DNA of 64,000 bases from Octopus vulgaris (lineage: Eukaryota). The stretch lies in NCBI GenBank assembly GCA_951406725.2, contig OX597815.1, positions 13,144,001-13,208,000 on the forward strand. The letters are read 5' to 3'. Position 1 is the first letter of the stretch. Each line of letters opens with the position of its first letter. Of the stretch, positions 8,400 to 58,530 are shown piece after piece. The translations under genes were made by a program, and so were the position numbers. Below the pieces are notes generated by a model that saw nothing but the letters and a program-made list of their open reading frames with translations, did no database searches and was not told where the DNA came from.

Positions 8400-9100
8400 C
8401 AATTGTACTAGATATTTTATTGGTTGAACGATATTTCGACTTTAAGTCTGTCTTTGCTGAGTTCAAAATATAAAGTGATAGAAATTAAAATTTAAAATAT
8501 GAACGAGAGAAACCATCGTCCACACGCTGATGGAATGACATCATTAGTCTTTAAGTTTCAATTTTATAACAGGCGAAAAGGGGACAAAAAGAAAGAGGAA
8601 AGAAAAAAGAAGAATATTTAATCAAACAGTTTTGTATGAATTTGATGGCATTCTGTTATTTTAATTATTCTTCCAGAGTGTAATGTTAATAACCCGAAAA
8701 CATATTTCTCCTCATTCAATATGAAATGTGAAAGTGAATCAGATTCAGAATAATTTCTGAGAATATGCACTTTCAACCCTTTTGCAAAATCGCAGCCGTT
8801 TGAAGCAAAAAGTTCAGCAGGTTAAGATGCCTGATGTCATATCTGTGCCCCATAAATCTTTTGTTTAATTGTTCTGTTGTACAACTATCATAAATCAAGT
8901 TGTGTTTCGTGCATTCTGCTACGTACGCCAGATTGGAATCTCTACATGCCCCACCTTCTGTAGAAATCATAACATTTCTGTTATGATTCTTGATGGAATT
9001 CACTTGACTCATATTGTTGCAAAATGAGCAGGGCTTACATATGTGCAGATATTCCAATGTTCGTTTTCTTGGAGTCAGAAGTAGAAGTCAATATTTCTCT
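8400..9100 (-). mobile_element. Penelope-like element 3' fragment: GIY-YIG endonuclease remnant plus pseudo-LTR end
   Basis: ORF 8773-9057 reads CKPCSFC...CRDSNLAYVAECTKHNLIYDSCTTEQLNKRFMGHRYDI (PLE endonuclease pattern). Downstream are a hammerhead-like junction (8424-8466) and AATAAA. Confidence 0.75.
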
Positions 9101-9603
9101 TATGTTCTTGTTCCGTCTAAAGTCTACAATACGCGACTGAGGAAGCATCTGTTCGAATCTCGGATATTTTTCCACCAGATTCTGATAACTTTCGTACAAC
9201 ACTTTTGAAATGCCAACGAAATTTAGTTGCCAGTGAATTATTAAATTGTGTCATCTATTGTATTTTGTTTGCTAAAATTATGCGTGAAGGTTTGACTGCC
9301 TTTGCTAATCTCAGCTATTCCATTTGCTATTTCCTTTAATTGTAATTCACTGTAACCACGCTTGACACAGATGTACAAAAGCATTTGCACTGCTTCCAAT
9401 AATCCAGTATATCAGTACAAGTCTGTTTTGTCCTCAAAAATCGGGGTTTCAGATTATACCAATATGATGTGGATGATCGGAGCACCGATGGAGATAAATG
9501 TGGGATGACGTGGGCTTGCAAAATAAGTCTGCCCCCAGAAAACTTAACTTTTGTGTCAAAAAATTCAACGCTAGTTGAAAATTATCCAAAAACATACAAT
9601 ATT

Positions 9604-10196
9604 TAATCATATCAAAGGGAAGTGGAAATTAATTAAAATTTACATTTCTAGTGGCCCAACGTAAACATTTAGTCCAAAAGACTATGTATTAGTTATAAGA
9701 TAGAGTGTACATATAAACACATGAGGAATCCACTCATGGAATTAAATATTGTAAGTTTTTGGATAATTTTCGGTTTTTAAAAGATGGCATTCTTTTATTG
9801 CTGGCGAAGGGCTGCGGCTGTGCAGCAGATTTTGAAAAAAGTTAGGATGTATAAACAAAGGGGACGTAGTTGATCGCCTCGTGTTTATACGTTTAACCCT
9901 AGGTGTTCCTGCTGAAAACAATTCACCTGTATGTTATTCATTTACTTGCTAAACTAAAATCAGAAACCAATTGGTCCAGGAAACTAGATGGTAAAATGTT
10001 TTTATTTTTCATTTCGTTCCTGTCGAATTTTATCCCGAATTCTGTGGTTGAAGAACCTAGCTGTTCTTTCTAGCGTGTTGAATCCCATGAGAGTATTCCT
10101 CATGTGTTTTAATGTACACTGTATCTTATAATTAATACATAGTCTTTTGGACCGTTGGAAATGTAAATTTTAATTAATTTCCATTTGGTATGATTA
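9604..10196. mobile_element. Non-coding element with 110-135 bp terminal inverted repeats
   Basis: 9604-9739 is the imperfect reverse complement of 10085-10196. A second copy with the interior in opposite orientation lies at 51123-51620. Confidence 0.85.
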
Positions 10197-10343
10197 TATA
10201 TATATATATGTATATATATATATATATATATATATATATATATATATATATATATATATATATATATATATATATATATATATATATGTATATATATATA
10301 TATATATATATATATATATATGTGTGTGTGTGTGTGTGTGTGT
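10197..10343. repeat. (TA)n(TG)n microsatellite
   Basis: Direct reading. Confidence 0.95.
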
Positions 10344-10345
10344 TT

Positions 10346-55337: not shown

Positions 55338-57010
55338 CAATTCACCTGCAGCTAGTACAGCATGATAAAATAATTTGAGTAAGCTTATAAGGAAATGAAA
55401 CCAAACAACTATCTTTCTCACTAAAATAATTGGTGTGTCGAGAACGCTATTGGTTCTTTAGTGATTAAGTTTTCCACTCCCACATTTTTATTCTTTCTTA
55501 TAGCCTAGATTTTTTTTGTATTCACCATTATAGCGGACTATTTTCAACAAAACTGGCGTATGAATCTGATGAAGACGTTCTCGGCACGGCTACAAGACAT
55601 TCATAACATACCTTAGATTTACTTTGTATACTTGTGAAACACCTACGGAACCTATCTGACATTTGAGGCTGATTATTTATTGATTCGAATATTGCATTAT
55701 AACCAGTGTTTATTGCTTTCCAAATCTTAGCACCTGTCATCTTTGCGGAATTTTCTATCAAATCTCTATCTATGACGAATTATATTTGATGCATTCATTA
55801 ATAAATTTAACTGGTTAGTTAGCGAGTCTCCTGTACTTTCTATGCAGGCATTGCTTATACTAGAAGACAGAAGCTTCGTTTAACCGGTATCAATCAATTG
55901 ACCCTACTACATTATATGTGTGTATGTCTTTGTGTGCACGTGTCTATGTGAATGTGCATCATTCATATACATACCTACATACACACACACATATATATAT
56001 ATATATATATATATATATATATATATATATATTGTTATATTTCGGAATGGTCATATTTAAACGTATATATATATATATATATATATAGATACATTTAAAT
56101 ATATATATATATATATGTATATATATATATATATGTATAAGTGCGTGTGAGTTAATGAATTTATGTATTTATGCATGTATGCATGTATGTATGTACGTAT
56201 GTATGAATGTATGTATGTATGTATGTATGTATGTATGTATGAAATGTATTGAATCATAATTCATAGTGTTTACATTCTTTAGGCAAATTCAGATATATTC
56301 CAGACTTCAATTATTTTCATACAACTATATGCAGCACAGCCTTTCAAAAATTACAACTAATTATCCTACTGATAATTACATTTGCATCTAATACAATTTC
56401 CATTATCTATTACATATTAATATTAATTATATTCTCTGTTTAAAGAAAATCATCGTATATAATTATTGGTGCATTTATATTTAATACATTTATATATTAT
56501 ACCGTCCGTCTGGAGCCAACAATGCATCGTGTCTTCTTTCACGACTGTGTATGCTGGAAATTACAGTCAAATTTCCACAAATATTGCTATGTTTCTATCC
56601 TAGAAATTGCTACGCGATTCTATATCAAATTACTACAGGTTGTGGATTTTCCGCCAATTCAGATGATGACTATTCGTTTATTCGAGTAAATGATTGCATA
56701 TTTGTGAAACTAACAGATGAGTGTCTAAGAATTCCATCAACAAGTGCACCATTCCATAACTAGGGTGGGTGCTTAAATTGCTGGTACAAAAAGAATGGGC
56801 ACTTAGCAATGGACTGCCACTTCTGTGAAAGGACAATATGTTTACCACTAAGTGAAATGCACCTGACGCCAGACATATTGGATATGGAAGTAGATATACC
56901 GGGTCATGTGCTGCCTACAGAACTAAGCACAGAACACGGAAACAAGGAGGTATAGCGACTTTCATCCAAGAAGACCTGGCAACAAACAAATGACCTATTC
57001 TCCCATTGCA

Positions 57011-57630
57011 ACACAGTGTACTAGGTGTGGATATATATATATATATATATATATATATATATATATATATATATATATACGTGTGTGTGTGTGTGTGTGT
57101 GTGTGTGTGTGTGTGTGTGTATATATATATATATAATATATATATATAATATATATATATATATATATAGTGTGTGTGTGTGTGTGTGTGTTTTGTGGTG
57201 TGTATATATATTAAATATATAATATATAATAATATATATATATACAAACACACACACACCACAAAACACACAATTATATTATATATATATGTGTGTGTGT
57301 GTGTGTGTGGTTGTGTGTGTGTGTTGTACACAGTGTACTAGGTGATTATATATATATTATATATATATATATATATATATATATATATATACAGTACTAG
57401 GTGTGGAATTATATATATATATAATATTTATAATATTTATATATGTGTGTGTGTGTGTGTGTTGTGTGTGTGTAGTGTGTGGTGTGGTGTGTGTTGTGTG
57501 TGTGTACACAGTGTACTAGGTGTGGATATATATATATATATATATATATATATATATATATATATATATATATACACAGTGTACTAGGTGTGGATAATAT
57601 TATATATATATATATATATATATATATATA
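57011..57630. repeat. Compound minisatellite: ACACAGTGTACTAGGTGTGGAT anchor alternating with (TA)n/(TG)n
   Basis: Anchor copies (some partial) near 57011, 57328, 57391, 57506 and 57574. Confidence 0.9.
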
Positions 57631-57640
57631 TTTATACATA

Positions 57641-58530
57641 GGGGGTGAATTCAAGAAAAAAAAAGACGATGACAGGTGGTGTAGACAACAAACAGATGTA
57701 TTAGTTTAACGTTCGGGAAGTGAAAAAAGTCTTTAACGTTTCGAGCCAATGCTCTTCCACAGAAAGGAACACGGAAAGAAACAAGGAGGGAAAATAAAGA
57801 ATTTGTAGCGGCTAGCGATTTATCATGCCGAATGCCGGAGAGGGGTCACACAGAAGAGCTAGGAAGAAGGGGAGATAATAAAGTAGTGGTGATACCAAAA
57901 CGAAGGAGACTGTGCTTGTGTATAGAAAGCATTATGTACGTGTGGAAGAGGGCTGGTGACCTTGACATGTGCGTGTGTGTATGCGTACATGTGTGGATGT
58001 GGAGCTGGGAAGTAGACAGTGCCACTGTGTGCGTGGTGGTGTGATGTGATGCGCTGTGGTGTTGTGTAGTATAGTGGCTTATGGTGTAATGGTGTGTGAT
58101 GTTCTGTGATGGTTTTGGGATGTGGGGTAGGCAAGAATGGGGATGGTAAAGGTGGGGTCTGGGTTTGGATGAAGTCGGAGGTAGAAGTGGGGAATATGGG
58201 TAGGCTGAGGGTGGAGGTGGAGGTAGAGGTGGGAATGGTGGGATTGGGTATAAGGAATGAGGTGGGGTGGGATGGGATGAATAGGGAAGATGGGGTTGGA
58301 TTGTGTGGAGGTGAGGTTACTAGGGAGGGGTAACGATAAAGGGAGAATGTGGGTAGGAGTGAAGAGAAGAAGTGGGAGTCGGAGCTAGAGAGGAGAGGTG
58401 GGCGGGAGATGGAGAGAGGAGAGGGGAGGAGAGTTAAGCCCATGTGGCTCAAGGGAGCAAAGAGAGAAAATTAATCCTTGTTCACGGCGCAAACGGGAGT
58501 CCGGATGGCTCCTGAGCAAGGACGTTGCAA
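57641..58530 (-). mobile_element. PLE 3' end: endonuclease C-terminus, pyrimidine-rich linker and pseudo-LTR with hammerhead
   Basis: ORF 58385-58618 contains RLRREQGLIFSLCSLEPHGLN (PLE motif RE..WI..L.TL.P.GLN); hammerhead motif at 57731-57766. Confidence 0.85.
57731..57766 (-). ncRNA. Minimal hammerhead motif with A6U core
   Basis: CTTT-CTGTGGA-A-GAGC-attg-GCTC-GAA-ACGT-T-AAAG. Stems I and II pair perfectly; stem III is a 4-nt palindrome. Confidence 0.65.

What the first reader, a model, noticed from the sequence alone, without database searches (positions are those of the whole stretch)
8424..57766. About a dozen PLE-associated hammerhead motifs sampling three different base pairs at the 3-8 core position
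Seen: hammerhead-shaped junctions at 8424, 10927, 11257, 11745, 12182, 13277, 13871, 23207, 27722, 35544, 35989 and 57731, from several unrelated repeat families. Cores read CTGA(T/A)GA (C3-G8), TTGAAAA (U3-A8), GTGAACA (G3-C8) and CTGTGGA (A6U), mostly with short palindromic stems III. Established: PLE pseudo-LTRs carry minimal type I hammerheads thought to act as dimers, and nucleotides 3 and 8 pair in the active fold. Inference: families here co-vary at that pair, implying selection on cleavage, and a canonical CUGANGA search would miss them.
Basis: partly seen in the sequence, partly recalled or inferred. Interest (0 to 1): 0.9.

Follow-up and report, generated by a model that had tools for sequence, protein, structure and literature searches.

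The report
Hammerhead ribozymes with swapped core pairs
These are twelve copies, mostly decayed, of hammerhead-shaped RNA motifs from repeat families, several of them shown to be ends of Penelope-like jumping genes; across this genome such families use all four possible base pairs at one key core position, and the intact ones likely cut their own RNA in pairs.

Summary
All 12 sites belong to 8 multi-copy repeat families with type I hammerhead anatomy, but only 2 of 12 window copies pass a strict descriptor; most are decayed. Three families (G3-C8, one U3-A8, A6U) were traced downstream of Penelope-like (PLE) endonuclease or RT-endonuclease frames, same strand. With positions 3 and 8 left free, each family keeps a Watson-Crick pair: G-C 80 of 100, U-A 96 of 100 and 10 of 11, C-G 96 of 100. 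Outside the window I found a fourth pair, A3-U8, in the lineage of the window's own RT remnant; one of its subfamilies switches to G3-C8 (85 A-U, 10 G-C, 5 other of 100). U3-A8 in PLE hammerheads is published. G3-C8 is known to me only as an engineered rescue, and natural G3-C8 or A3-U8 were not found in 10 searches, but the key paper (Lunse 2017) was not readable. The commonest superfamily (34,872 exact matches) mostly carries A6U or U4C cores, which should cut poorly. Cleavage and expression are untested. An earlier scan note mentions G3-C8 in a phage (unchecked). Verdict: new variants of a known kind.

The parts
8424..8466 (-). Decayed copy of a U3-A8 hammerhead family (family core TTGACAA; this copy TCAGCAA); stem I 6 bp, stem II 5 bp in the intact copy, palindrome ATAT, C17
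   Evidence: 986 first-look candidates; intact copy L210; U-A in 10 of 11 exact matches; PLE link not tested
10927..10961 (-). Decayed copy of the A6U family (CTGTAGA; stem II broken, G12 lost)
11257..11291 (+). Decayed copy of the U4C family (CCGACGA, C3-G8), which shares stem II GAGC/GCTC and palindrome ACGT with the A6U family
   Evidence: PLE link not tested
11745..11820 (-). C3-G8 hammerhead (CTGAAGA) with long stem II and a 4-bp stem III with 2-nt loop; this copy lacks one A of GAAA
   Evidence: (1392 candidates); GIY-YIG remnant beside copy L213 lies on the opposite strand
12182..12224 (-). G3-C8 family copy: core GTGAACA intact, stem II and palindrome decayed
13277..13340 (+). C3-G8 hammerhead (CTGATGA), stem III 5 bp with 2-nt loop, one stem I mismatch in this copy
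   Evidence: (919 candidates); PLE link not tested
13871..13917 (+). G3-C8 family copy, decayed to A3.C8 with C11.1 and G12 changed
   Evidence: (1146 candidates)
23208..23241 (-). A6U family copy with complete anatomy (CTGTGGA, extra A, stem II 4 bp, palindrome ACGT, U17)
27722..27795 (+). C3-G8 hammerhead (CTGATGA) with long stem II; family palindrome ACAGCTGT broken in this copy
   Evidence: (copies in L100); PLE link not tested
28212..29494 (-). Broken PLE reverse transcriptase remnant, cut before its 3' end; its lineage carries A3-U8 and G3-C8 hammerheads elsewhere in the genome
   Evidence: RVT_1, E 0.00058, below cut-off; 47-49% to the 753-aa ORF of L194
35544..35577 (-). U3-A8 family copy (TTGAAAA), stem II damaged; left arm of a divergent inverted pair
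35578..35988 (+). Sequence between the inverted arms; most of it is collinear with the 3' UTR that follows a GIY-YIG frame in L062
35989..36024 (+). U3-A8 family copy with G5 lost (TTAAAAA); right arm of the inverted pair
   Evidence: (774 candidates)
57731..57766 (-). A6U family copy with complete anatomy
   Evidence: 3043 candidates
58418..58531 (-). C-terminal remnant of the PLE endonuclease frame, about 650-750 nt upstream of the 57731 hammerhead on the same strand
   Evidence: (longer copy L203 hits the EN part of both PLE ORFs, E 2e-5 to 9e-4)

Best explanation
The motifs are scattered, mostly decayed copies of minimal type I hammerhead folds, three families of which sit at the 3' ends of Penelope-like retrotransposons; their source elements likely cut their own RNA as dimers, and the 3-8 pair was likely kept by selection while its letters were swapped. 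Shown: the anatomy (stem I, N3-U4-G5-N6-N7-N8-A9, often one extra base, stem II, GAAA, palindromic stem III, U-H), the copy numbers, the position downstream of GIY-YIG frames on the sense strand (about 0.2 to 1.1 kb in the loci measured), and four Watson-Crick states at 3-8. From the literature: two copies pair through the palindromic stem III to form the active dimer; the 2'-OH of residue 8 and G12 do the chemistry, so base 8 can change if base 3 changes with it; a PLE hammerhead needed the element's protein to cut. Inferred: cutting after H17 trims read-through or tandem transcripts; selection acts only on source elements, so inserted copies decay; A6U and U4C cores cut slowly or need the element's protein.
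For: Family censuses with 3 and 8 free (hand counts of listed rows): G-C 80 of 100, U-A 96 of 100, U-A 10 of 11, C-G 96 of 100, A-U 73 of 76, and 85 A-U plus 10 G-C of 100 in one homologous family. Reversed-pattern controls gave 0 in each. A core-free scan of 1.04 Mb gave 22 multi-copy clusters; 11 have a recognisable core and all 11 have a Watson-Crick majority at 3-8. In the G family, changes concentrate in loop II (17.9%) against core 4.6% and flanks 6.6-8.1%; contigs of four runs labelled with four organisms show no variant at 10% or more in any core position, but six rows in loop II. In the A6U family the free position 7 takes all four bases while 3, 5, 8, 9 stay (5 and 9 were fixed by the pattern). 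In the A-U lineage stem I and the palindrome change together. PLE linkage. Literature.
Against: No cleavage or expression data were obtained. Copies are not independent: each family or subfamily is about one event. On 13 distinct RT-anchored copies the 3-8 pair did not beat shuffles (A-U 7, G-C 2, unpaired 4; 64 of 500 shuffles as high). A deep mutational scan of another hammerhead found only the G-C swap rescued, all other core single and double mutants being low, which counts against A3-U8, U3-A8, A6U and U4C in that construct. PAc hammerhead mutants did not affect insertion in vitro, and no RNA-seq reads ended at the site. Naiad PLEs amplify without hammerheads. Stem II is only 2 bp in one A-U subfamily, and 16 of 76 of its matches read GTAAA for GAAA. 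PLE linkage is shown for 3 of 8 window families.
Confidence: 0.7

Rival explanations
1. The fold is kept for a job other than cutting, such as binding the element's protein or pairing two RNAs; several families (A6U, U4C, 2-bp stem II) would be catalytically dead while still amplifying.
For: About 59 of 100 and 23 of 100 listed rows of a 34,872-match superfamily carry A6U or C4 cores, only 12 of 100 are canonical. A6C cut Mg2+ activity about 10,000-fold in a tested ribozyme. Hammerhead cleavage was dispensable for PAc insertion in vitro.
Against: The 3-8 pair belongs to the active conformation, and it is what the families keep; GAAA, the A15.1-U16.1 pair and H17 are kept too. Natural U4C and A6C ribozymes retain some activity.
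Confidence: 0.2
2. The folds are real but now neutral passengers: an old hammerhead drifted, and the paired states reflect a handful of founder events.
For: Inserted copies decay without compensation; the independent events number only about five or six; A.C and G.U states occur in the A-U lineage.
Against: Every one of the non-C-G families found with 3 and 8 free has the pairing partner; loop II, position 7 and position 17 change between subfamilies while the core stays; a young G3-C8 subfamily lies beside long open frames.
Confidence: 0.07
3. The variant motifs are chance matches to a loose descriptor in an AT-rich repeat-laden genome.
For: Loose descriptors give as many hits in shuffles (37 against 28.8), and 11 of 22 multi-copy clusters of the core-free scan had no core.
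Against: 5-7 bp stem I, 4-5 bp stem II, perfect palindrome and the extra base after A9 coincide at the position expected in PLEs; strict descriptor 13 against 1.0.
Confidence: 0.03

Closest known systems
Minimal hammerheads of metazoan Penelope-like elements (Cervera and de la Pena 2014, PMC4209133)
   Same: Type I, extra base between A9 and 10.1, palindromic or very short stem III, in PLE terminal repeats, thousands of solo and inverted copies; a U3-A8 family with core UUGAAAA in Schistosoma mansoni.
   Different: Their text and the 50-odd representatives I read list C3-G8, U3-A8 and one U3.G8; none has G3-C8, A3-U8, U6 or C4, and no cephalopod is listed in the part read.
PAc (Poseidon, Anolis) hammerhead (PMC11167929)
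   Same: PLE hammerhead in which engineered C3G/G8C partly restores cleavage; protein-assisted.
   Different: G3-C8 is engineered there and natural here; there the hammerhead overlaps the start codon, here it lies in a 3' region after the stop codon.
Natural core variants of hammerheads (Perreault 2011, PMC3088659; Naghdi 2020, PMC7151607)
   Same: U3-A8, U4C, A6C, U13a and 2-bp stems II are known natural variants.
   Different: Described as rare; the passages read do not mention G3-C8, A3-U8 or A6U; here A6U and U4C are the bulk of a 34,872-match superfamily.
Small PLE-associated dimeric hammerhead variants (Lunse, Weinberg and Breaker 2017)
   Same: By title and by a review's summary: short stem III, PLE-associated, cleave as dimers.
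   Different: Not readable here; it may already contain some of these core variants.
Neptune-type PLEs (Craig 2021, PMC8557442)
   Same: C-terminal GIY-YIG, CX2-5CxxC linker, inverted 5'-truncated copies, microsatellite surroundings.
   Different: Clade placement rests on the linker motif only; Nematis shares it and no tree was built.

Membership tests
Type I minimal hammerhead ribozyme (PLE type) | Three-way junction: stems I and II around the core, GAAA, A15.1-U16.1, H17 | tested here: met
   Met in intact family copies; met in 2 of 12 window copies under the strict descriptor
Type I minimal hammerhead ribozyme (PLE type) | Canonical core C3 U4 G5 A6 N7 G8 A9 | tested here: not met
   Met by 3 of 8 window families (11745, 13277, 27722); the other five carry U3-A8 (two), G3-C8, A6U or U4C. 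These are filed as variants, not canonical members
Type I minimal hammerhead ribozyme (PLE type) | Watson-Crick pair between positions 3 and 8 | tested here: met
   Majority state in each family counted; not significant on the small alignment A1
Type I minimal hammerhead ribozyme (PLE type) | Palindromic or very short stem III that allows a dimer | tested here: met
   ACGT, ATAT, AATATT, ACCGGT, ACAGCTGT, ACCATGGT, or 4-5 bp with a 2-nt loop; folding predicted the intermolecular palindrome in 2 of 5 tests
Type I minimal hammerhead ribozyme (PLE type) | Site-specific self-cleavage after H17 | not testable with these tools
   Needs an assay; only assembled contigs were available
Rfam hammerhead families | Score against an Rfam hammerhead model | tested here: not met
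   No hammerhead model among listed hits
EN+ Penelope-like element | RT followed by C-terminal GIY-YIG endonuclease, hammerhead downstream on the sense strand | tested here: met
   G3-C8: L200 530-aa frame, GIY-YIG 23.1 bits over cut-off 22.6, RT by YVDD motif and 27% to L194; A3-U8 lineage: L169; U3-A8 TTGAAAA: L062 only; A6U: L203, L204, window 58418-58531
EN+ Penelope-like element | Same linkage for families at 8424, 11257, 11745, 13277, 27722 | tested here: inconclusive
   11745: GIY-YIG remnant on the opposite strand in L213; for the others only 2-4 short loci each were seen and no long copy was sought
EN+ Penelope-like element | Inverted 5'-truncated copies | tested here: met
   Window 35544/35989; L005, L192, L193, L198
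Neptune clade | CX2-5CxxC linker and placement in an RT tree | tested here: inconclusive
   Linker present in L200 and L194 frames; no tree built

The most novel reading that the evidence does not exclude
One animal genome's Penelope-like elements have amplified working hammerheads with all four Watson-Crick pairs at 3-8, including natural G3-C8 (in two distant element lineages) and A3-U8, plus tens of thousands with A6U or U4C cores, because the element's own protein relaxes the catalytic core; none of G3-C8, A3-U8 and A6U has been reported in nature.
Probability: 0.3. Interest if true: 0.72.

Novelty: new variant of a known kind. Interest (0 to 1): 0.52.

Why it matters
The C3-G8 pair was inferred from crystals and engineered swaps; nature was known to use U3-A8 as well. 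Natural G3-C8 and A3-U8 families, and an A-U to G-C switch inside one lineage, would complete the natural evidence and give ready-made test molecules. The very large A6U and U4C families bear on the open question of what PLE hammerheads are for: either they cut with help, or the elements keep the fold without needing fast cleavage. Standard CUGANGA searches miss most hammerhead-like motifs in this superfamily (88 of 100 listed rows), so reports that a PLE clade lacks hammerheads may need rechecking with freer cores.

Tried and rejected
Expression: no RNA holder listed on record; the four runs laid were contigs, which show no ends (table 6 empty), so nothing follows on expression or cleavage. 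Dimer folding: the intermolecular palindrome formed in 2 of 5 tests (U3-A8 L066, A6U 57731), not for G3-C8 L200, U3-A8 L210 or C3-G8 L212; no test gave a complete hammerhead dimer. First descriptor missed the extra base after A9 and gave mostly chance hits. The L049/L219 family looked like a second decayed G3-C8 family but is canonical CTGATGA with a long stem II. A GTGAACA match in L170, L172, L180 with a 2-nt palindrome, and ATGACTA matches in L021, L034, were set aside as weak. No hammerhead was found by my descriptors near the young 753-aa PLE frame in L194/L195. A3 in 6 of 67 G-family copies is inflated by the query, which has A3; the pattern census gave 5 of 100. The script meant to measure ORF-to-hammerhead distances in the A-U lineage did not run; distances were read from coordinates. 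Not held: Lunse 2017, Przybilski and Hammann 2007, Hammann 2012. Earlier scan notes: nothing in this genome or by sequence.
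Full report
Setting. The window is G000:C2:13144001-13208000 in a 2.8-Gb genome of 227 contigs, 34% G+C and rich in microsatellites. That it is a cephalopod is my recall and inference, not tested. Counts from listed rows of pattern searches are hand counts; where more than 100 matched, only the first 100 in genome order were shown.

Observation. Each of the 12 coordinates is the edge of a type I hammerhead-shaped motif, and each aligns at 78-97% to a natural copy elsewhere. 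They form 8 families. Most window copies are damaged: a strict descriptor passes 2 of 12 and a looser one a third; the strict one cannot by design pass 11257, 11745 or 13277. At 13871, 35989, 8424 and 10927 the copy differs from the named core, and 11257 has CCGACGA (U4C). In 400 kb taken at fixed round coordinates on 20 contigs the strict descriptor, with 3 and 8 free, found 13 motifs with a Watson-Crick 3-8 pair against 1.0 in 12 block shuffles, and 3 others against 1.7; 7 of the 13 are one tandem array; with the loosest setting the totals were 37 against 28.8. Rfam listed no hammerhead model.

G3-C8 family (12182, 13871). Intact copies read: stem I of 5-7 bp, GTGAACA, one extra base, 5-bp stem II, GAAA, palindrome AATATT, U17. 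A DNA search gave 1146 candidates. An exact 35-place pattern with 3 and 8 free gave 107 matches and 0 in the reversed control; of 100 listed, 80 were G-C, 20 unpaired or wobble, none C-G, U-A or A-U. In 67 distinct copies mismatch rates were core 4.6%, stem I 2.6%, stem II 8.7% (CpG sites), loop II 17.9%, flanks 6.6-8.1%; all 10 copies at 95% or more to L200 have G-C (the set is biased by how loci were chosen). Contigs of four runs labelled organisms A, B, C and D showed variants at 10% or more in loop II (six rows and an insertion), at 11.1 and at one stem I position, none in the core. The hammerhead lies about 1.0-1.1 kb after the end of an RT plus GIY-YIG frame on the same strand in L135, L136, L137, L143, L146, L192, L193, L198, L199, L200 and about 1.3 kb in L147; several of these loci overlap the same insertion (L135/L136, L137/L200, L143/L199, L146/L198). 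The 530-aa frame of L200 passes the Pfam GIY-YIG cut-off but has no RVT_1 hit; its RT is recognised by motif and by 27% identity to the 753-aa frame of L194, which passes RVT_1. It has a CX3CxxC linker, as described for Neptune and Nematis.

U3-A8 families. TTGAAAA (35544, 35989): 550 exact matches, 96 of 100 listed U-A; position 10.1 alternates A and G opposite U. One long copy, L062, has a GIY-YIG frame about 580 nt upstream, with a UTR collinear with window 35620-35988. The window's two copies are a divergent inverted pair, the arrangement described for PLEs. TTGACAA (8424): intact in L210, 10 of 11 exact matches U-A. Three further U3-A8 motifs were single in my data (L103, L106, L141).

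A6U and U4C. A pattern fixing stem II, G5, A9 and GAAACGT and leaving 3, 4, 6, 7, 8 free gave 34,872 matches, 0 in the control; of the first 100 (the first 5 Mb of one contig), 59 were CUGU cores with all four bases at 7 (19 A, 23 U, 11 C, 6 G), 23 had C4, 12 were canonical, 3 had C6, 3 had U3.G8; 96 kept C3-G8. Some canonical-looking CTGACGA copies may be CpG decay from CCGACGA (inference). The 57731 copy lies downstream of a peptide remnant at 58418-58531 that continues in L203 and L204 into a GIY-YIG frame, L203 hitting both PLE proteins. A second U4C core occurs in a relative of the 27722 family (L121).

A fourth pair outside the window. The RT remnant at 28212-29494 retrieved 7681 candidates. 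In the 3' UTR of those elements, about 175 nt after the stop codon in L169, lies a homologous hammerhead-shaped motif. One subgroup gave 139 matches: of 100 listed, 85 A3-U8, 10 G3-C8, 3 A.C, 1 G.U, 1 U.C. So 10 of 11 G3 copies have C8 and 85 of 88 A3 copies have U8; the G-C copies are probably one subfamily, thus one event. Two G-C copies (C5:89879637, C7:30013041) lie about 1.26 kb downstream of RT hits on the same strand, the same spacing as A-U copies. A second subgroup gave 76 matches, 73 A-U, with an 8-nt palindrome, a 2-bp stem II and one extra base near G12; 16 read GTAAA, which is either loss of G12 or an insertion like the natural U13a. Stem I changes on both sides between subgroups. 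Against this, on 13 distinct RT-anchored, older copies the pair count was A-U 7, G-C 2, unpaired 4, with 64 of 500 shuffles as high. This lineage's frames are 47-59% identical to L194, the G family's about 27%, so G3-C8 occurs in two distant PLE lineages.

Across families. A scan of 1.04 Mb with no constraint on the seven core letters gave 345 motifs, 22 multi-copy clusters and 157 singletons; 11 clusters had a recognisable core (one after re-reading), all with a Watson-Crick majority at 3-8, and 11 were set aside as having no core. Much of that DNA was chosen by similarity to the window's families.

Mechanism. Shown: anatomy, position, copy number, states at 3-8. From papers: palindromic stem III lets two copies form an active dimer, with low activity in vitro; the 2'-OH of residue 8 is essential and C3G partly rescues G8C, also in a PLE hammerhead, which cut only with the element's protein and was not needed for insertion in vitro; in a full double-mutant scan only the G-C swap rescued. 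Inferred: source elements cut their RNA after H17 to trim read-through or tandem transcripts; swaps passed through wobble or A.C intermediates; inserted copies decay. I put 0.7 on this, 0.2 on a non-cutting role for the fold, 0.1 on drift or chance.

What is known. PMC4209133 (main text parts 1-2 of 4; supplement file 2 passages and part 2 of 3; file 1 not searchable) reports PLE minimal hammerheads and a U3-A8 family with the same core. PMC3088659 (passages) reports natural U3-A8, A6C, U13a, and cites U4C; its figure and supplements were not seen. Passages only: PMC11167929, PMC8495972, PMC3884650, PMC8557442, PMC6155905, PMC9901934, PMC7151607, PMC10085705; PMC6765202 passages and half of section 11; bioRxiv 10.64898/2026.07.22.740005 part 1 of 5. 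Searches for natural G3-C8, A3-U8 or A6U (context searches) returned only engineered cases. Lunse 2017, Hammann 2012 and Przybilski and Hammann 2007 were not held, and their alignments or supplements could contain these variants; this is the main doubt on novelty.

Verdict. New variants of a known kind; interest 0.52.

Noticed in passing
L091:2272-4548: Tandem array (about 359-nt unit, part inverted) with seven identical canonical type I hammerheads, retrozyme-like; similar motifs in L103:8328-8369 and L141:167-209 have U3-A8 and a near-identical stem II and loop.
   Followed up: partly
L194:158-3929, L195: Young PLE family with an upstream 338-367-aa frame and a 753-aa RT plus GIY-YIG frame, many near-identical copies; no hammerhead found by my descriptors.
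   Followed up: partly
window 14294-15156, 27195-27419, 32890-33173: Tandem and dispersed copies of a 184-nt repeat unit.
   Followed up: no
window 3652-4098, 36026-36760, 42936-43349: Reading-frame remnants that look like C-terminal parts of LINE-type retrotransposons (by eye; no informative Pfam hit).
   Followed up: partly
L137:1060-1500 and other G-family loci: The G3-C8 element's 3' region carries its own (TACA)n-like microsatellite tracts, so it spreads microsatellites as it inserts.
   Followed up: partly
L219, L049: Canonical CTGATGA hammerhead whose stem II encloses about 90 nt; 300 first-look candidates.
   Followed up: partly
L204:230-1051: Mariner/Tc1-like transposase frame beside an A6U element (by eye).
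   Followed up: no
window 13231-13359: The 13277 hammerhead sits between inverted arms of its own family's flank.
   Followed up: no
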